Made by a program: the position numbers and the translations under genes. This document shows positions 22,985 through 44,866 of a DNA stretch of 64,000 bases, piece after piece. Numbering within the stretch: the first letter of the stretch is position 1; the number at the start of each line of letters is the position of its first letter. A model generated the notes under the pieces. The model searched no databases. It had not been told where the DNA came from and saw only the letters and a program-made list of their open reading frames with translations. Source of the DNA: a bacterium (GTDB taxonomy: Bacteria > Pseudomonadota > Gammaproteobacteria > GCA-002705445 > GCA-002716945); NCBI GenBank assembly GCA_029979505.1, contig JAPOHH010000001.1, forward strand, positions 55,034 to 119,033. The letters run 5' to 3'.

Positions 22985-23884
22985 ATGAAGCAAATATTGA
23001 TAAAATATCTTAGTTTATTGTTTTTTATAGGATTTATTGTAAATACATCATACGCTGGAGGCAAAGAGAGCAAATCATCTAACTTAATGATGGCTTCAGA
23101 TTATTATGGATCATATTCAATATCATTGGGCCAGCTTGATTGGAACAAGAATAGTAATACAGCAGACACTGAACCTATGCTCTACCAACCTATTTCGGTA
23201 GACGGCTGGTTGGGGAAAAAACTTAGTCAATATACAGAAGGGGTATTAAGCTTTAAATATACTTATTATGGACGCTCTGGCAACACAGAGCAGGCAGAAG
23301 ACGATGCTCTAAGACAGGCTTTAAATGCCAATCTTTTACATCTTAGACATTACAATAGCTCTACAAGTTTTATTAACCTTGGGTATGTTTTTTCCGAAGA
23401 GAATGAAAACAACAGCTCTAATGGTAATATGAATAGTTATATAGCAAGTGGGGGTCTAGCAACTGAATCTATGATTTTTGAATTAGGCATTGCTTCTACA
23501 GCTACAGAAACTCTTAGCTTGTATGCTGATGAGATAGTTTATTACAATTTTAGTTTTAAATTACCAATAACAAACAGAATCAATTTAGTAGCTTCAAAGC
23601 ATTATTCAGAATATGAAAGAAAACTTCAAAACCTAACTTACGACGGTGAGGAAATGGATATATCAGGTCTAAAAGTTACTTATGACTTGAATAACTCATT
23701 TATTACTCTAGGTGGTGACAGATATACTGTTAAAAATGACTCAAGCCCTGAGAACACCGGCGGCAGCGTCTATTTTTCATGGACAGTACCTTTTGGTAAA
23801 TTGCCAAATAGTAGAACAAGCTTCATATTAGATAACCGACCAGCGGTAGACAGGGTAATAGGATTTGGTTCAGCGCTTAATTAA
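22985..23884 (+). CDS. Hypothetical exported protein (signal peptide, Ser/Asn/Tyr-rich, possible outer-membrane protein)
   Basis: N-terminal signal peptide MKQILIKYLSLLFFIGFIVNTSYA. No recognisable family motifs. Confidence 0.5.
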   Translation: MKQILIKYLSLLFFIGFIVNTSYAGGKESKSSNLMMASDYYGSYSISLGQLDWNKNSNTADTEPMLYQPISVDGWLGKKLSQYTEGVLSFKYTYYGRSGNTEQAEDDALRQALNANLLHLRHYNSSTSFINLGYVFSEENENNSSNGNMNSYIASGGLATESMIFELGIASTATETLSLYADEIVYYNFSFKLPITNRINLVASKHYSEYERKLQNLTYDGEEMDISGLKVTYDLNNSFITLGGDRYTVKNDSSPENTGGSVYFSWTVPFGKLPNSRTSFILDNRPAVDRVIGFGSALN

Positions 23885-25287
23885 GAAGTAGATTTTGAAA
23901 GTTTCTTAAAAGCGCTTAATGCTCTTTCTCTAGTAATAGATAAATCTACAATTGGATACGGATAATCACTACCAAGCTTAACTCCATATTCTATTAAACT
24001 TTTATCATCAAGTTCACTAGGTAAATGTATGTATTTATTAGGTATATTTTTTAATTCTGGAACATATTTTCTAATATAATCTCCATCTGGATCAAATTTT
24101 TTACTTTGTGTTACAGGATTAAATATCCTGAAGTAGGGGGCAGCATCTGCTCCAGTACCTGCCACCCATTGCCAACTTGCAGAATTACTTGCGATATCTG
24201 CATCAACAAGCGTGTCCCAGAACCATTCCTGACCATATTTCCAATGTATCAATAGGTTTTTTACAAGAAAAGACCCAACTATCATCCTTACTCTATTATG
24301 CATATAACCTGTTTCATATAGCTGCCTCATGCCTGCATCAATTATTGGGTATCCAGTCATACCTTTTTGCCAGCTTTTTAGATGATCCTGATTATCTAAC
24401 CATTTAAAATTATCAAATTTTTTTTGAAGGTTTGTATCCACCAAATGAGGGAAGTGGTAGAGTAAATGGTAAGAGAATTCTCTCCAAACAAGTTCTTTAT
24501 AAAAAACTTCCGCATCTTCTGTTTTTATTTTTTCAACAGATTTAGCAATTTCTCTAATTGATATTTCACCAAATCGTATATGTGCGGATAACATTGATGT
24601 ATGCTGCTTATCAGGCCTGTTTCTTCCTTCTGAGTATCCATTCAGCCCATCTGACAGAAAAACTTTTAATTTTTTCTGAGCGCCAGCTTCCCCTGGAGTC
24701 CATTCACTAAGCAGTTTTTGATGCCATTTTTCTGTCTTTATAGTTGAATCCAAAATTTTTGAGATTTGTTCGTTATACTTACAATCAATAAAATCAATTT
24801 CTTCAGTATTATAGTTAAATAATTCATACGTCATGTCCTGATATTGTTGTTTATAAAATGGGGTATAAACTTTAAATGGAGTAGCATCTTTTTTAAGTGT
24901 ATTCTGTGGATTTTTTAGTAAGCATGAATGAAATGTTATGCAATTAACATCATGATTTTTAACAATATTTTTAATATCATTATCTTGATTTATATCATCT
25001 TTTAAATAACGTGCATTCCAAAGAATTTCTTTGATTCCATGATTGTTCACTAAATCTAACAATACCTTGTTAGGTTCGCCCTCAAATAATGCCAGGCTAC
25101 CTTTTAACGATTTATCCAATGATATTAAGCTTTGTTTAAGCCACCATTTGCTTGCAGAGCCTAATGAAGTAAAGGGGTCATAGATATAAATAGGAAGGAC
25201 TTTGCGTTTATTTTCTATACAGTAATTTATGACTGCATTATCAGATACCCTAAGATCATTTCTAAACCAAATGATACTCTTTACCAT
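23881..25287 (-). CDS. phrB: Deoxyribodipyrimidine photolyase (class I CPD photolyase)
   Basis: FAD-binding region WQWVAGTGADAAPYFRIFNP and the N-terminal photolyase domain. Confidence 0.9.
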   Translation of the reverse strand: MVKSIIWFRNDLRVSDNAVINYCIENKRKVLPIYIYDPFTSLGSASKWWLKQSLISLDKSLKGSLALFEGEPNKVLLDLVNNHGIKEILWNARYLKDDINQDNDIKNIVKNHDVNCITFHSCLLKNPQNTLKKDATPFKVYTPFYKQQYQDMTYELFNYNTEEIDFIDCKYNEQISKILDSTIKTEKWHQKLLSEWTPGEAGAQKKLKVFLSDGLNGYSEGRNRPDKQHTSMLSAHIRFGEISIREIAKSVEKIKTEDAEVFYKELVWREFSYHLLYHFPHLVDTNLQKKFDNFKWLDNQDHLKSWQKGMTGYPIIDAGMRQLYETGYMHNRVRMIVGSFLVKNLLIHWKYGQEWFWDTLVDADIASNSASWQWVAGTGADAAPYFRIFNPVTQSKKFDPDGDYIRKYVPELKNIPNKYIHLPSELDDKSLIEYGVKLGSDYPYPIVDLSITRERALSAFKKLSKSTS

Positions 25288-41015: not shown

Positions 41016-41470
41016 TTTTCTTACTTTTCATAATTGTAAATCCTGTATTTGCTGAACAATATACTGCTAATGTAATAAAAGTAATCGATGGCGACACAAT
41101 TTGGGTTAAAAAAGATAACAAACATATCAAAATAAGATTAAGCTATATAGATGCACCTGAACTAAAACAAAATTTTGGCATACGAAGTAGAGATTTTTTA
41201 TCTACTCTTATTCTTAATAAAAATGTCGAAGTAAATACAAATAAAAAAGATCGATACAATAGACATCTTGGTGAAATTTATATTCATAGTGCTAAGGAAT
41301 CAATATTTGTAAATGCAAAAATGATAAAAAGTGGTAACGCATGGATATATAAAACATATAAAAAAAATCCTTATCTGAATAATCTTGAGAACTATGCTAG
41401 AGTAAACAAAAAAGGCTTATGGAATGAAGAAAAAATTATAGAGCCTTGGAAATTTCGGAGAAAACAGTGA
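40994..41470 (+). CDS. Secreted thermonuclease (SNase/micrococcal nuclease family)
   Basis: Signal peptide followed by the SNase core VIDGDTIWV...IRLSYIDAPE. Confidence 0.8.
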   Translation: MFSRKYLIFLLFIIVNPVFAEQYTANVIKVIDGDTIWVKKDNKHIKIRLSYIDAPELKQNFGIRSRDFLSTLILNKNVEVNTNKKDRYNRHLGEIYIHSAKESIFVNAKMIKSGNAWIYKTYKKNPYLNNLENYARVNKKGLWNEEKIIEPWKFRRKQ

Positions 41471-42042
41471 TTAATATAAAAAATTTATTAACTATATTTA
41501 TTTTATCAATTTCATCAATTGCTCTAGCCGGCGAACCTCAAGTAAATCATAAAGAATCAAAATATTTTATTGGAATTGGGACAGGAGATGGAGGTGGTGC
41601 TCATGGCGGTAGTTTTAATGCATATAGAATTTCATATCAAAGTTTTCTTTCAAAGAATCATAAATATGGTTTTGATTACTTATCGGATGTAGGTTTAAAT
41701 TTTTGGAAGGATGATTCTAGGCTTAGTGCTTCAGATAAATCTACTGCTACTTCAAGCTTAGATTCTTCCAATTTCTCAATATCATATTCAAGAATCATCA
41801 GGAAATATTTAAATCAAAATACTTTCTTTGATATAGGAGTAGGGCTATCCATTCATAATAATGACTCAATGGGTGGTTCTGACCTAGGATCATATTATCA
41901 ATTTGAAAATAGGTTAGGTGTTGGGTATGAGCGAGGCACTTATCGTTCTGTCTTCAACTTATTCCATTATTCAAATGGCGGTTTAGAAGGTAAAAATGAT
42001 GGAGTGGATATCCTGATGTTATCTATTTCTAAGTATTTTTAA
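41467..42042 (+). CDS. PagL-like lipid A deacylase / acyloxyacyl-hydrolase family outer-membrane protein (putative)
   Basis: Signal peptide from the GTG at 41467 (in frame with the longer track ORF). About 190 aa with a C-terminal aromatic residue (KYF). Motif FHYSNGG resembles the PagL His-x-Ser-Asn active-site motif as I recall it. Confidence 0.45.
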
Positions 42043-42169
42043 TCTTATTTTTTTTACATTTTTTAGAACAATATAGAACATTGTCCCAATCTTTTTGCCA
42101 TTTTTTTCTCCAGCTAAATGGCAATTTACATACGGGACATATTTTTTCTGGAAGATTATTCTTTTTCAT
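42029..42169 (-). CDS. DUF2256 zinc-ribbon micro-protein (46 aa), not in supplied ORF track
   Basis: Minus-strand translation [46 protein letters not shown] matches the DUF2256 pattern C-x2-C...F-W-R-K-K-W...W-D...Y-C-S. The ATG overlaps the stop region of the upstream DUF393 gene, consistent with translational coupling. Confidence 0.6.
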
Positions 42170-42509
42170 CTAGTTGATGTTTATTTTTATAGAATAAAAA
42201 AAGTGCTATCACTTCATAAAAGATAACACTTACTTGATATATTATTGGAGTAGAGATTATATGGGCAATCCATCTATATTTTGGAATGTTTTCCCACATT
42301 ATAATGAATGCACTTACTCCAGAATAAACTTTTTCATCTTTTATCACGTGTAATCGTCTAAGCAGCTCTCTATGACTTCTACCTGATAATTTAGTAGATA
42401 TTTCTAAGTCATTGATATCTAACCAATTAATATTATTTTCTAAAGATTTATAATGATTTATTTCCTTTGAGCATATTGGGCAACTATCATTAAATAATAC
42501 TTTAATCAT
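42156..42509 (-). CDS. Thiol-disulfide oxidoreductase DCC family (DUF393)
   Basis: N-terminal FNDSCPICS (CxxC) and size of about 117 aa; overlaps the upstream cryptochrome-like gene by 8 nt. Confidence 0.55.
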
Positions 42510-43980
42510 AAGTATTCTCTGCTAAAAATTCATTTGCTTTAGATAGAATAGTATCTTTTCTATCTTTTCTCATTTTATCAAATAAGTTAACCATCATATT
42601 TAATCGTGGATTTTTCTTAAAAAAAAGTCGGTTTTTGTCAATAAATCTCCAATATAATCCATCAAATGTATCGCACCAAGTACCTTTTTTAAAATCCATC
42701 ATTTTTAATATATAGTTAGATCCACAAATATAAGGCTTAGTAGCCATAATTCCACCATCAGCAAAAAGGCCCATACTGTAGACATTTGGAGTCATTACCC
42801 AGTCTGATGAATCTATATACAACTCCATAAACCATTTATAAGCATTTTTTGGCTCTATTTCACATAAATTCATTAGGTTGACTTGAATCATGAGTCTTTC
42901 AATATGGTGAGAATATGCATGTCTAATCGTACTTTTTATGCTTATATCTAATGGATCCAGACCTGTATCACCTGTGTACCAGGACTCCTTTAATGTCCTT
43001 TTGTGGTTAAAGAAATTTCTTTTCTCTATCTCATCACCTTCATGGTGATATATGCATCTCATAAATTCACGCCAACCAATAATTTGTCTTACAAATCCTT
43101 CATATGAATTAATAGGAATATTTTTTATACTTTTGATATTCTTGAGTATTTCATATGGAGTAATCAAGCCAATATTGAGAGATGAACTTAAGTTGGAGTG
43201 GAACCAAAGATGTGATCTTTGGTCAACAGAATCCTCGAAATCACCAAAGTTTTTGAATTTACTCTTTATAAAGTAGTCTAAGTTTTGTAATGCTTGTTTA
43301 CGTGTAGTGGGATAATTAAAGTCTTTTTCATTACCATAGTGATCTTTAAACTCATCAGAGACCAACTTTAAAATATCTTTAGTATTTTGTGTGTGTTTAA
43401 AGATAGGCGAAGAGGGTGGTTCTAAATTTTTTGGTATTTTTTTTCTATTTTCACTATCATATGTCCATTTTCCACCAATCGGCTTACCATCTTTTAATAA
43501 TATATTTAACTTTTTTCTCTGATTTATATAAAAATCGGTCATCTTATACTTTGGTGCTTTTCTGGATGGACACATATCGAAAAACTCCTCTTTTTTTGTA
43601 AGAAACATAGGAGACTGATACTCTTTTAACTCTTCGATATATTTTTTGACTTTTCTAATATTGCTGTAAAACCATTTATCCTCTATTTCCCAAATACTTA
43701 TCTTTCTTATGTCATTTTCCTTAATATATTTAATCAAGGAATCTTCGTAAGTGTATGAATCATATCCTAATTCTTGATATTCTATATCTATTTTATTTTT
43801 TTTAAGTTCATCCCTATAAGATCTCATTGCAGATAAAAATAAAATTATTTTATGTTTATGGTGTCTCTCATAAGTGCATAGACCCATATCTTCCCGCATA
43901 AAAACTTTTGTAGGTTGTATCTTCTTGATTTGATCTATAGGAAATAGTTGATTCCCAAGCACTATATGTAAATCTGTCAT
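42502..43980 (-). CDS. Photolyase-related protein of the FeS-BCP/CryPro family (PhrB/CryB-like (6-4) photolyase lineage), apparently lacking the Fe-S cysteine ligands
   Basis: Motifs HHKHKIILFLSAMR, GGKWTYDSENR, EGFVRQIIGWREFMRCIY, SHHIERLMI and ADGGIMATKPY parallel Agrobacterium PhrB as I recall it. The C-terminal region has only one Cys where the C-x2-C-x12-C cluster is expected. Confidence 0.8.
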   Translation of the reverse strand: MTDLHIVLGNQLFPIDQIKKIQPTKVFMREDMGLCTYERHHKHKIILFLSAMRSYRDELKKNKIDIEYQELGYDSYTYEDSLIKYIKENDIRKISIWEIEDKWFYSNIRKVKKYIEELKEYQSPMFLTKKEEFFDMCPSRKAPKYKMTDFYINQRKKLNILLKDGKPIGGKWTYDSENRKKIPKNLEPPSSPIFKHTQNTKDILKLVSDEFKDHYGNEKDFNYPTTRKQALQNLDYFIKSKFKNFGDFEDSVDQRSHLWFHSNLSSSLNIGLITPYEILKNIKSIKNIPINSYEGFVRQIIGWREFMRCIYHHEGDEIEKRNFFNHKRTLKESWYTGDTGLDPLDISIKSTIRHAYSHHIERLMIQVNLMNLCEIEPKNAYKWFMELYIDSSDWVMTPNVYSMGLFADGGIMATKPYICGSNYILKMMDFKKGTWCDTFDGLYWRFIDKNRLFFKKNPRLNMMVNLFDKMRKDRKDTILSKANEFLAENTYD

Positions 43981-44071
43981 ATCACGGATATCCTTATCAA
44001 TAATAGAAGGATAGGTTATATATTATAATATTTCTAGATATATATATGTTCGTATAATATATATTATGTAA

Positions 44072-44866
44072 TTAATCTATATAAAAAACATTAGAATTCA
44101 TTATTTTATAAGATTTAATCAATGAGGCTGCATTGTCTGATGAAAGCCAATTAAAGAGTTTCTCTGCAGGAGCAAATTCTAAATTATTACATCTGTTATG
44201 ATTGACAAGAATCATTCCATAACTATTTTTAAGTTCAGTTGGATTTTCATACAAAATGGTATGATTAGATTTATTATTAAAACGCAACCAAGAAGATCTA
44301 TCAGTGAAAATATACCCGTCTAGTGATATAGCTATATTAAGGGACTGTCCCATACCTTGACCAGTCTCAAGGTACCAATCTCCGCTATGTATACCAGGTT
44401 TCAGCGATACATTCTTCCAAATGTCCATTTCAGCTGAATGAGTACCACTAGAATCGGATCGTGATATGAATTTATGCTGGTATTTGTAGATTTTTGAAAA
44501 AGCTTCGTGTATTGATTCAGAAGTTGATACTTCCGCCTTATCCATTTTAGGCCCAACTAGTATAAAATCATTATACATTAATTCGTGCCTTTTAAGTCCA
44601 AAACCATTATCCATAAACATTTTTTCACGTTTTTGATCATGTACAATTAGTATATTTCCATCACAATTTCTTGCATTCATAATTGCTTGACCAGTTCCTA
44701 CAGCAATAACTTTAATTTTAACGGTATTAAAGTCTGGATAAAATGGTAATAAGTATTTATATAAACCAGAGTCTCTTGTTGAGGTAGTTGATTGAATGAT
44801 TAACGTATCGCTAAAAACAATTTGGTAAGAAAATAAAAGTATGAAGGTAAATAATTTTTTAAACAT
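44072..44866 (-). CDS. tupA: Tungstate ABC transporter substrate-binding protein (TupA type)
   Basis: Signal peptide; anion-binding motif STTSTRDSGL and VIAVGTGQA...ILIVHD...MYNDFILVGP, matching TupA-type binding proteins as I recall them. Confidence 0.65.
   Translation of the reverse strand: MFKKLFTFILLFSYQIVFSDTLIIQSTTSTRDSGLYKYLLPFYPDFNTVKIKVIAVGTGQAIMNARNCDGNILIVHDQKREKMFMDNGFGLKRHELMYNDFILVGPKMDKAEVSTSESIHEAFSKIYKYQHKFISRSDSSGTHSAEMDIWKNVSLKPGIHSGDWYLETGQGMGQSLNIAISLDGYIFTDRSSWLRFNNKSNHTILYENPTELKNSYGMILVNHNRCNNLEFAPAEKLFNWLSSDNAASLIKSYKIMNSNVFYID

What the first reader, a model, noticed from the sequence alone, without database searches (positions are those of the whole stretch)
42029..42509. 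Cryptochrome-like gene co-transcribed with a DUF393 (DCC thiol-disulfide oxidoreductase) gene and an unannotated DUF2256 zinc-ribbon micro-ORF
Three minus-strand genes overlap head-to-tail (8-nt and about 14-nt overlaps), implying translational coupling: FeS-BCP-like, then DUF393 (CPxC), then a 46-aa DUF2256 protein (C-x2-C...FSWRKKW...WD.V.YCS..C) that is missing from the ORF track. I recall both small families being genomically associated with photolyase/cryptochrome genes elsewhere, but their function is unknown. This compact operon is a clean candidate for a light-linked redox or zinc-ribbon partner module.
Basis: partly seen in the sequence, partly recalled or inferred. Interest (0 to 1): 0.5.

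Follow-up and report, generated by a model that had tools for sequence, protein, structure and literature searches.

The report
Photolyase operon with zinc-finger microgene
A marine bacterium's light-driven DNA-repair gene (a (6-4)-type photolyase) is followed by a small redox gene and an unannotated 46-codon zinc-finger gene, and that zinc-finger family sits next to photolyase genes across many bacterial phyla, so it is probably an undescribed helper of these enzymes.

Summary
Three minus-strand genes overlap by 8 and 14 nt. They are a 492-aa prokaryotic (6-4) photolyase homologue (E 1e-77 to PhrB), a 117-aa DCC1-like CxxC protein and a 46-aa DUF2256 protein (73 bits). The DUF2256 gene is not called in the source genome.

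The photolyase lacks three of the four [4Fe-4S] cysteines, so it is of the known FeS-less (PromaPL-like) type.

The micro-ORF is real. In 69 metagenomic relatives it keeps its position, its four Cys and three Trp, with dN/dS about 0.18.

In 80 genomes from several phyla, DUF2256 lies directly beside a photolyase-family gene in 44. The partners are (6-4) photolyases, Cry-DASH, a divergent class and short photolyase-like proteins, never canonical CPD photolyases, and gene order varies.

The DCC link is lineage-specific (1 of 80). DCC persists where the photolyase and DUF2256 are both absent.

Overlaps are the norm in this genome (30 of 49 same-strand pairs), so they prove little.

DUF2256 is a +11-charged FCS/YacG-like zinc finger. 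It most likely acts as an accessory subunit on the enzyme and/or DNA, but this mechanism is inferred. No paper found links DUF2256 to photolyases.

The parts
42502..43980 (-). Prokaryotic (6-4) photolyase-family gene (492 aa), FeS-less subtype
   Evidence: Pfam DPRP 1.1e-57 plus FAD_binding_7. Full-length match to PhrB 4dja, CryB 3zxs and other 6-4 photolyases, E 1e-75 to 1e-77. H365, H366, R369, W390 and Y424 (PhrB numbering) are kept. C350 is replaced by P, and a 10-residue deletion removes C438 and C441. W342 is Y and Y391 is F.
42156..42509 (-). DCC1-like (DUF393) thioredoxin-fold CxxC protein (117 aa)
42029..42169 (-). Unannotated DUF2256 micro-gene (46 aa, net charge +11), a C-x2-C-x19-C-x3-C zinc finger
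42502..42509 (-). 8-nt stop/start overlap between the photolyase and DCC (ATGATTAA)
   Evidence: In relatives the overlap is mostly 4 nt.
42156..42169 (-). 14-nt overlap between DCC and DUF2256 (ATGAAAAAGAATAA), coding in two frames
   Evidence: The same 14-nt overlap is kept in the metagenomic relatives.
44048..44071 (-). Conserved upstream element TTACATAATATATATTATACGAAC with a 16-bp near-palindromic core; putative operator overlapping the promoter of the transcription unit
   Evidence: Unique in the window, with 0 matches expected by chance. The 22-mer is exact in 41 related loci. It sits upstream of whichever gene is first in the unit, including DCC alone in photolyase-less relatives. A promoter-like hit overlaps it at 44085..44056, although that scan found no more hits than chance overall.

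Best explanation
The locus is one transcription unit in a streamlined, AT-rich marine gammaproteobacterium. Relatives are labelled 'Gammaproteobacteria bacterium'; SAR86-like is my inference. The unit encodes three proteins:
1. An FeS-less prokaryotic (6-4) photolyase.
2. A DCC1-like thioredoxin-fold CxxC protein.
3. A 46-aa, strongly basic Cys4 zinc finger of family DUF2256.

Shown:
- All three genes are real.
- DUF2256 is under purifying selection.
- Across phyla it is embedded in clusters of non-CPD photolyase-family genes.
- In this clade it is present or absent together with the photolyase.
- The unit is preceded by a strictly conserved palindromic element.

Inferred:
- DUF2256 is an accessory subunit made together with the photolyase. 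It would use its invariant Trp/Lys/Arg face to dock on the flavoenzyme and/or on the DNA substrate, and so modulate lesion binding or repair. The analogy is the related zinc finger YacG, which docks on gyrase.
- DCC is a lineage-specific addition that supplies thiol-based reducing or protective capacity under the same promoter. It is not an obligate part of the pair.
For: Family assignments.

The micro-ORF is real:
- 69 of 75 related loci keep it at the same overlap.
- There are 61 distinct sequences and dN/dS is 0.18.
- The family has 6603 clusters at 90% identity and 2439 representatives at 50% identity. Members are almost all 45-120 aa and stand-alone.

Link to photolyases:
- Of 80 genome loci (Bacteroidota, Balneola, Alpha- and Gammaproteobacteria, Verrucomicrobiota, Chloroflexota), 46 have a photolyase-family gene within 8 kb.
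- 44 are directly adjacent, 41 on the same strand, and 34 with a gap of 20 nt or less.
- Gene order varies (z-D-F, F-z-D-X, D-X-z-F, X-z-f, S-z-f, divergent f/z), which argues against simple inheritance of one arrangement.
- Directly adjacent classes: Cry-DASH 17, divergent class 13, FeS-less 6-4 11, FeS 6-4 9, short photolyase-like 3, class I-like 0.
- In the window itself, the class III CPD photolyase at 23881..25287 has no DUF2256 next to it.

Independent annotated records: the same adjacency appears in Ralstonia, Acinetobacter and Salinivibrio replicons.

Co-absence: relatives with DCC at the same syntenic site lack both the photolyase and DUF2256.

One in-frame DUF2256-Cry-DASH fusion fragment exists (P0324).

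Fold:
- Cys4 spacing is C-x2-C-x19-C-x3-C, and net charge is +7 to +12.
- Pfam gives sub-threshold YacG, MYND and HIT hits.
- Pfam places DUF2256 in the TRASH clan with YacG/DUF329 (PMC4047054).

Shared control: the conserved operator-like element.
Against: - No direct evidence of physical interaction, metal content or DNA binding.
- 34 of 80 genome loci, and Pantoea, Agrobacterium and Deinococcus plasmids, carry DUF2256 with unrelated neighbours. Adjacency is therefore not obligatory, and a photolyase-independent role is possible.
- The 80 loci are the ones most similar to the query, not a random or phylogenetically independent sample.
- The single fusion could be a frameshift artefact.
- Gene overlaps are uninformative in this genome.
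- DCC occurs without the photolyase.
Confidence: 0.5

Rival explanations
1. Redox relay. The Cys4 site of DUF2256 binds iron, as in rubredoxin. The micro-protein would pass electrons, perhaps along its three invariant Trp, from a partner reductase to the photolyase, keeping or restoring FADH- in vivo. The partner reductase would be the flavin-reductase-like protein in Bacteroidota and DCC in this clade.
For: - A Flavin_Reduct-domain gene lies in 20 of the 80 loci. In 14 it sits immediately upstream of DUF2256, abutting or overlapping it.
- Here a thiol-disulfide oxidoreductase occupies the neighbouring slot.
- SDR and glutathione peroxidase genes recur in these clusters.
- From memory: a flavin-reductase domain is fused to a rubredoxin domain in Moorella Hrb, and photolyases need an external reductant for photoactivation in vitro.
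Against: - The Cys spacing is the TRASH/FCS type, not the rubredoxin knuckle pair.
- The host photolyase has dispensed with its Fe-S cluster, which sits oddly with adding an iron protein.
- Many clusters have no reductase gene.
Confidence: 0.15
2. Regulator or signalling output. DUF2256 is a nucleic-acid-binding zinc finger that controls expression of the light/UV gene cluster, or transmits the signal of cryptochrome-like members (Cry-DASH, CryB-type), rather than assisting repair chemistry.
For: - Very basic small zinc finger.
- It is associated with Cry-DASH and with divergent, possibly non-repair family members more often than with any single repair enzyme.
- The operon has a strictly conserved palindromic operator, so some DNA-binding regulator exists.
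- Orphan copies fit a regulator better than an enzyme subunit.
- From memory: FCS fingers bind RNA.
Against: - A monomeric 46-aa finger is an unlikely reader of a 16-bp palindrome.
- The palindrome is confined to this clade (no exact match in L001-L080), whereas DUF2256 is nearly invariant across phyla.
- DUF2256 is absent from relatives that keep the palindrome upstream of DCC.
Confidence: 0.15
3. No functional module. The three genes are merely packed together in a streamlined genome, and DCC, and possibly DUF2256, work independently of the photolyase.
For: - 30 of 49 same-strand pairs overlap in this window, including functionally unrelated neighbours such as metX, a nuclease and PagL.
- DCC is retained alone at the same site in relatives and occurs in unrelated contexts.
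- DCC is found in only 1 of 80 DUF2256 loci.
Against: - For DUF2256, 44 of 80 direct adjacencies across phyla with shuffled gene orders cannot be chance. With about 5 photolyase-family genes per roughly 3000 genes (my assumption), under 1% adjacency is expected.
- For DCC, three independent contexts link it to photolyase-family genes: this clade, DCC-PsiE-short photolyase-like, and alphaproteobacterial locus L074, where DCC overlaps DUF2256 inside a photolyase cluster.
Confidence: 0.1

Closest known systems
YacG (Pfam PF03884, DUF329), the zinc-finger inhibitor of DNA gyrase (PDB 4tma)
   Different: DUF2256 is a separate family with its own invariant W-x3-W-x3-W and Lys/Arg-rich motif, and lacks the acidic C-terminal tail of YacG. 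Its genomic partner is a photolyase, not gyrase. Membership is not supported (13.8 bits against a cutoff of 25.5). Only the working analogy is proposed.
FeS-BCP / prokaryotic (6-4) photolyases: PhrB of Agrobacterium (4dja), CryB of Rhodobacter (3zxs)
   Same: Full-length homology, E 1e-75 to 1e-77. DPRP plus FAD-binding domains. Catalytic His-His, Arg, W390 and Y424 are conserved.
   Different: Three of the four [4Fe-4S] cysteine ligands are missing, with a 10-residue deletion. W342 is Y and Y391 is F.
FeS-less 'subgroup M' prokaryotic 6-4 photolyases, e.g. Prochlorococcus PromaPL (described in PMC9178010)
   Same: Same family, and also lacking the four conserved cysteines. The same signature is shared by 13 neighbours of DUF2256 in other genomes.
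   Different: Phylogenetic placement within subgroup M was not tested here. No accessory genes are mentioned for these enzymes in the passages of that paper that I searched.
DCC family thiol-disulfide oxidoreductases (PF04134; plant DCC1 is described in reviews as a thioredoxin, e.g. PMC7598583 and PMC6603150, listed but not read)
   Same: Pfam hit above threshold, invariant CxxC, and a predicted thioredoxin-like fold with a helical C-terminal part.
   Different: In this clade the residue three positions before the first Cys is Asn (N7), with Asp at -2. L074 has the DxxCxxC form. No link to photolyase was found in the searched literature.

Membership tests
Prokaryotic (6-4) photolyase / FeS-BCP (CryPro) | DPRP-type N-terminal domain plus photolyase FAD-binding domain, with full-length similarity to PhrB/CryB | tested here: met
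   Pfam DPRP 1.1e-57 and FAD_binding_7 2.6e-6. PhrB, CryB and other 6-4 photolyases match at E 1e-75 to 1e-77 over residues 1-487.
Prokaryotic (6-4) photolyase / FeS-BCP (CryPro) | Four cysteines ligating the [4Fe-4S] cluster (C350, C438, C441, C454 in PhrB); this defines the FeS-BCP subtype | tested here: not met
   P at position 350. A 10-residue deletion removes 438 and 441. Only one Cys remains, one position away from 454. The protein is therefore not an FeS-BCP in the strict sense, but is consistent with the FeS-less subtype described in PMC9178010.
Prokaryotic (6-4) photolyase / FeS-BCP (CryPro) | Catalytic His-His and neighbouring residues of the lesion/FAD site (H365, H366, R369, W390, Y424) | tested here: met
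   All are conserved in the alignment with PhrB. W342 is Y and Y391 is F, as in all 13 FeS-less homologues.
Prokaryotic (6-4) photolyase / FeS-BCP (CryPro) | Light-dependent repair of (6-4) photoproducts | not testable with these tools
   Requires an enzyme assay.
DCC1-like thiol-disulfide oxidoreductase (PF04134, DUF393) | Profile match above the curated threshold | tested here: met
   66.3 bits against a cutoff of 27.8, covering profile positions 1-104 of 113.
DCC1-like thiol-disulfide oxidoreductase (PF04134, DUF393) | N-terminal DxxCxxC motif (motif definition from memory) | tested here: inconclusive
   The CxxC (C10, C13) is invariant in 35 homologues. Position -3 is Asn and Asp is at -2 (NDSCPIC). 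L074 has DGKCGLC.
DCC1-like thiol-disulfide oxidoreductase (PF04134, DUF393) | Thioredoxin-like fold with CxxC at the start of helix 1 | tested here: met
DUF2256 (PF10013) | Profile match above the curated threshold over the whole 40-position model | tested here: met
   73.4 bits against a cutoff of 25, profile positions 1-40 of 40.
DUF2256 (PF10013) | Family signature C-x2-C-x19-C-x3-C with FxW(R)KKW...W and YCS | tested here: met
   Invariant columns in 74 sequences. The spacing and W-x3-W-x3-W are present in 80 of 80 genome homologues.
DUF2256 (PF10013) | Metal (zinc) binding | not testable with these tools
   AlphaFold2 gives a hairpin-plus-helix finger but does not model metal.
YacG / FCS-type zinc fingers (TRASH clan) | Significant profile or fold similarity | tested here: inconclusive
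Translationally coupled operon | Stop/start overlaps conserved among relatives, and one upstream control region | tested here: met
   Overlaps are kept in about 70 related loci. A conserved upstream element precedes the first gene. Actual coupling or co-transcription cannot be tested here, and overlaps are common genome-wide.

The most novel reading that the evidence does not exclude
DUF2256 is a dedicated protein partner of bacterial non-CPD photolyase-family enzymes ((6-4) photolyases, Cry-DASH and related classes). It would be a small zinc (or iron) finger that binds the enzyme directly, and is needed in vivo for lesion handling or for delivering electrons to the flavin. To my knowledge no dedicated accessory protein of bacterial photolyases has been described.
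Probability: 0.3. Interest if true: 0.75.

Novelty: new variant of a known kind. Interest (0 to 1): 0.55.

Why it matters
To my knowledge, bacterial photolyases and cryptochromes are treated as single-polypeptide enzymes. How their flavin is kept reduced in vivo, and what bacterial Cry-DASH and related divergent family members do, remain open as far as I know.

A tiny, almost invariant zinc-finger protein is one of the commonest unexplained micro-proteins in bacterial genomes (noted as frequent in sORFdb). It sits beside these genes in many phyla. That gives a concrete, cheap experimental handle: pull-downs, repair assays with and without the protein, and deletion mutants.

It also shows that a conserved gene of this system is missed by automatic annotation in streamlined marine genomes.

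The strictly conserved palindromic element upstream offers a route to the regulator of the operon in an uncultured lineage (SAR86-like, by my inference).

Tried and rejected
1. Gene overlap as evidence of a module. Rejected as uninformative: 30 of 49 same-strand pairs overlap in the window.
2. A general DCC/DUF393-photolyase association. Only 1 of 80 DUF2256 loci has a DCC gene, so the link is lineage-specific.
3. An alternative conserved partner in the 34 photolyase-less DUF2256 loci. Pfam on 119 neighbours gave only miscellaneous families.
4. Domain fusions as 'Rosetta stones'.
   - The top 120 and top 150 homologues are stand-alone.
   - P0153 (DCC+DUF2256) is an internal-deletion chimera lacking the first CxxC.
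   - P0333 looks like a chimera with a glutathione peroxidase C-terminus.
   - P0273 is a spurious hit to a giant C2H2 array.
   - Only P0324 (DUF2256 joined in frame to a Cry-DASH N-terminus) is suggestive, and it is a single truncated sequence.
5. Solved structures by sequence: none for DUF2256 or this DCC.
6. Promoter and terminator consensus scans: no more hits than chance.
7. Rfam on the leader: nothing. No second copy of the palindrome in the window.
8. Literature searches found no paper on the function of DUF2256 or linking it to photolyase. Terms tried: DUF2256, COG4338, DUF393+photolyase, SAR86+photolyase, DUF2805/TIGR03643.
9. Long ORFs that seemed to fuse DUF2256 to upstream sequence in high-GC loci (L002, L015, L066) were set aside, without a test, as likely start-codon artefacts of my crude ORF caller.

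Full report
**Observation**

The minus strand carries three ORFs:
- 42502..43980 (492 aa)
- 42156..42509 (117 aa)
- 42029..42169 (46 aa)

The stop/start overlaps are 8 nt (ATGATTAA) and 14 nt (ATGAAAAAGAATAA), read directly.

Pfam assigns them to DPRP plus FAD_binding_7 (1.1e-57), DCC1-like (66.3 bits) and DUF2256 (73.4 bits, full model). NCBIfam has no model for the two small proteins.

The exact 46-aa product is not on record in the protein collection. The four neighbouring proteins looked up are all on record from an NCBI contig of 230,597 bp, so the micro-gene was not called in the source genome. Close relatives of a neighbouring protein are labelled 'MAG: Gammaproteobacteria bacterium'. 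The window has 30.6% G+C. I infer a SAR86-like streamlined marine lineage but did not prove it.

**Is the arrangement more than chance?**

Overlap itself is not informative. With a simple longest-ORF gene call, 30 of 49 same-strand neighbour pairs in the window overlap, the median gap is -4, and about 97% is coding. Functionally unrelated neighbours overlap too, for example homoserine O-acetyltransferase, a nuclease and PagL. The evidence must therefore come from comparison.

A metagenome scan with DCC homologues returned 80 loci. In the 75 loci whose DCC is 63-79% identical to the window's:
- The photolyase gene lies directly upstream in 68. In 5 the contig is too short to tell, and in 2 it is truly absent.
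- DUF2256 lies downstream at the same 14-nt overlap in 69.

The six loci without a detected DUF2256 break down as follows:
- A one-base frameshift (L119).
- Two contig ends (L160, L164).
- One real absence with the photolyase kept (L142).
- Two loci (L168, L169) that lack both the photolyase and DUF2256.

The 70 micro-ORF copies give 61 different protein sequences. All keep four Cys and W-x3-W-x3-W. Median pairwise dN/dS is 0.18 over 903 pairs. The micro-ORF is a real, constrained gene.

**The photolyase**

Three of the four cluster ligands of PhrB are missing: C350 is replaced by Pro, and a 10-residue deletion removes C438 and C441. The catalytic H365/H366, R369, W390 and Y424 are kept. W342 is Tyr and Y391 is Phe.

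Exactly this signature recurs in 13 of the 38 homologues found next to DUF2256 in other genomes. The other 25 have all four Cys.

FeS-less members of this family (subgroup M, including Prochlorococcus PromaPL) are already described (PMC9178010). So this is a known subtype, and 'FeS-BCP-like' needs that qualification.

**DUF2256 and photolyase genes across genomes**

A scan of one genome per species with a DUF2256 alignment found at least 585 relatives. The 80 most similar loci were fetched with 8 kb on each side. They come from Bacteroidota, Balneola, Alpha- and Gammaproteobacteria, Verrucomicrobiota, Chloroflexota, Actinomycetota and others.

- 46 loci contain at least one photolyase-family gene.
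- In 44 it is the immediate neighbour of DUF2256.
- In 41 it is on the same strand.
- In 34 the gap is 20 nt or less.

I clustered the hits and checked representatives against Pfam and the PDB. The classes, by number of loci, are:

| Class | Loci |
|---|---|
| Prokaryotic (6-4) photolyases | 38 |
| Cry-DASH (E 1e-126 to 1np7) | 26 |
| Divergent ~490-aa class | 21 |
| Short FAD-domain-only proteins (~370 aa) | 7 |
| Class I-like CPD photolyases | 3 (never adjacent) |

Gene orders differ between lineages. Writing z for DUF2256, D for Cry-DASH, F and f for (6-4) photolyase with and without the FeS cysteines, X for the divergent class and S for the short class, the observed orders are z-D-F, F-z-D-X, D-X-z-F, X-z-f, S-z-f and a divergent f/z pair.

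If a genome has about five such genes among a few thousand (my assumption), adjacency by chance would be well under 1%.

Independently annotated replicons show the same thing:
- Ralstonia: two photolyase-family genes, then an uncalled DUF2256 overlapping the start of a 'DASH family cryptochrome'.
- Acinetobacter: a cryptochrome/photolyase family protein followed by DUF2256.
- Salinivibrio: photolyase and DUF2256 overlapping.
- Pantoea, an Agrobacterium pAt plasmid and Deinococcus: orphan copies.

In the window itself a second photolyase (23881..25287, class III CPD type, E 2e-129 to 4u63) has no DUF2256 or DCC beside it.

The 34 genome loci without a photolyase neighbour show no alternative recurrent partner.

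**DCC**

Only one of the 80 DUF2256 loci has a DCC gene. This is L074, an alphaproteobacterial MAG, where DCC overlaps the end of DUF2256 inside a photolyase cluster.

In the SAR86-like clade the trio is conserved. A sister group has DCC, PsiE and a short photolyase-like gene.

However, relatives at 60-66% identity keep DCC at the same syntenic place, directly after the PBP_like_2/ABC transporter genes, with neither the photolyase nor DUF2256. More distant ones sit in unrelated contexts.

So DCC is linked to photolyase genes in a few lineages but is not dependent on them. The photolyase and DUF2256 come and go together around it.

**What DUF2256 looks like**

- It is 45-62 aa, with net charge +7 to +12 (+11 here), and an invariant C-x2-C-x19-C-x3-C and W-x3-W-x3-W.
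- The family is large: 6603 clusters at 90% identity and 2439 representatives at 50% identity. Members are almost always stand-alone.
- AlphaFold2 gives a zinc-ribbon hairpin, short turns carrying the Trp residues, and a C-terminal helix (pLDDT 81).
- Pfam gives sub-threshold YacG, MYND and HIT hits.
- Pfam places DUF2256 in the TRASH clan with these families (PMC4047054).
- There is no solved structure by sequence.

**Mechanism**

Shown: co-location, co-orientation, tight spacing, co-absence with the photolyase in this clade, purifying selection, and a zinc-finger-like fold.

Inferred: DUF2256 is an accessory protein of non-CPD photolyase-family enzymes. I favour a YacG-like mode, in which a small finger docks on the enzyme and/or contacts the DNA backbone through its basic, Trp-rich face and modulates lesion binding or repair.

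A redox-relay alternative is not excluded. In it, a Cys4-Fe centre with a Trp wire would be fed by the neighbouring reductase. It is prompted by the flavin-reductase-like gene found in 20 of the 80 loci and immediately upstream of DUF2256 in 14 of them, and by DCC here. The fold matches do not favour rubredoxin.

A regulatory role is a third option.

One truncated sequence (P0324) joins DUF2256 in frame to a Cry-DASH N-terminus. This is suggestive of physical association, but it is a single case.

**Upstream control**

Directly after the stop of the preceding PBP_like_2 gene lies TTACATAATATATATTATACGAAC (44048..44071, minus strand).
- It is unique in the window, with none expected by chance.
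- The 22-mer is identical in 41 related loci, although the proteins there have diverged by 20-35%.
- Its core is a 16-bp near-palindrome.
- It precedes whichever gene is first in the unit: the photolyase, an extra ~290-aa gene (L142, L149, L153, L155), or DCC alone in the photolyase-less relatives, where the palindrome is perfect.
- A promoter-like hit overlaps it, but that scan found no more hits than chance overall.
- No Rfam family matches.

I read it as an operator overlapping the promoter. The regulator is unknown.

**Comparison, novelty and limits**

All three genes are members of known families, and the FeS-less photolyase subtype is published.

What I could not find in the searchable literature is any functional statement about DUF2256 or any link to photolyases.

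I therefore rate the locus as a new variant of a known kind, a photolyase repair unit with conserved accessory genes, and of moderate interest.

Limits:
- The 80 loci are the closest relatives of the query, not an unbiased sample.
- My gene calls are crude.
- No whole-genome co-occurrence test, complex prediction or expression data could be obtained.

Noticed in passing
window 23881-25287 (-): A second photolyase gene (468 aa), class III CPD-photolyase type: E 2e-129 to A. tumefaciens PhrA (4u63), with DNA_photolyase plus FAD_binding_7 domains. It has no DUF2256 or DCC gene beside it. Its neighbours are an unknown 299-aa protein and RmuC.
   Followed up: yes
window 44048-44071 (-) and loci L098-L170, L091, L168, L169, L185, L186: A strictly conserved 22-24-nt element with a 16-bp (near-)palindrome CATAATATATATTAT(A/G) lies upstream of the operon. 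It is exact in 41 relatives. It is also present upstream of DCC alone where the photolyase is absent. A second conserved box, RACCTATYCTAC, lies about 55 nt downstream. The regulator is unknown.
   Followed up: partly
window 42502-43980 (-); L004, L009, L010, L022, L026, L040, L046, L049, L055, L060, L061, L069, L071: A coherent FeS-less signature in the (6-4) photolyase family: C350P (Ala in L009), a 10-residue deletion removing C438 and C441, W342Y and Y391F. It is shared by the window protein and 13 homologues, mostly from Bacteroidota.
   Followed up: yes
L001 7351-8001, L009, L010, L011, L023, L027, L040, L046, L054, L059, L060, L064, L075, L077 (directly upstream of DUF2256); L022, L037, L052, L057, L058, L080 (nearby): A flavin-reductase-like gene (Pfam Flavin_Reduct, about 215 aa) abuts or overlaps the start of DUF2256 in 14 loci, giving the order flavin reductase, DUF2256, then Cry-DASH and/or (6-4) photolyase.
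   Followed up: partly
L180 5150-5404 (Acinetobacter schindleri plasmid); neighbours in A2/A3: Another small uncharacterised family, TIGR03643/DUF2805 (about 84 aa), recurs next to these photolyase clusters. It was found in 6 of 127 neighbours in photolyase-containing loci and 2 of 119 in the others.
   Followed up: no
P0324 (103 aa, from the 50% representative library): An in-frame fusion fragment: a complete DUF2256 domain runs straight into the N-terminus of a DNA_photolyase (Cry-DASH-like) domain and is cut at 103 aa. It could be a natural fusion or a frameshift artefact.
   Followed up: partly
P0274 (120 aa), P0167 (92 aa), P0406 (274 aa): Tandem duplications of the DUF2256 finger in one protein (P0274, P0167). 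P0406 has a long low-complexity, hydrophobic N-terminal extension before the finger, possibly a eukaryotic or organelle-targeted form.
   Followed up: no
window 42029-42042: The 3' end of the DUF2256 gene overlaps, convergently and by 14 nt, the 3' end of a PagL-like lipid A deacylase gene (41446-42042, +). This leaves no room for a terminator, and none was found by the scan.
   Followed up: partly
whole window: Extreme gene packing: about 97% coding, and 30 of 49 same-strand neighbouring genes overlap (median gap -4 nt).
   Followed up: yes
L094-L096, L173-L177: A sister DCC lineage (about 55-59% identity) is arranged as DCC, PsiE and a 392-aa FAD_binding_7-only (short photolyase-like) protein. 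This is a second, different DCC-photolyase-family linkage without DUF2256.
   Followed up: partly
L142, L149, L153, L155 (about 870-900 nt between the palindrome and the photolyase start): Some relatives carry an additional gene of about 290 aa, ending ...GR(L/M)IIKK, between the conserved upstream element and the photolyase. It is part of the same unit and was not identified.
   Followed up: no
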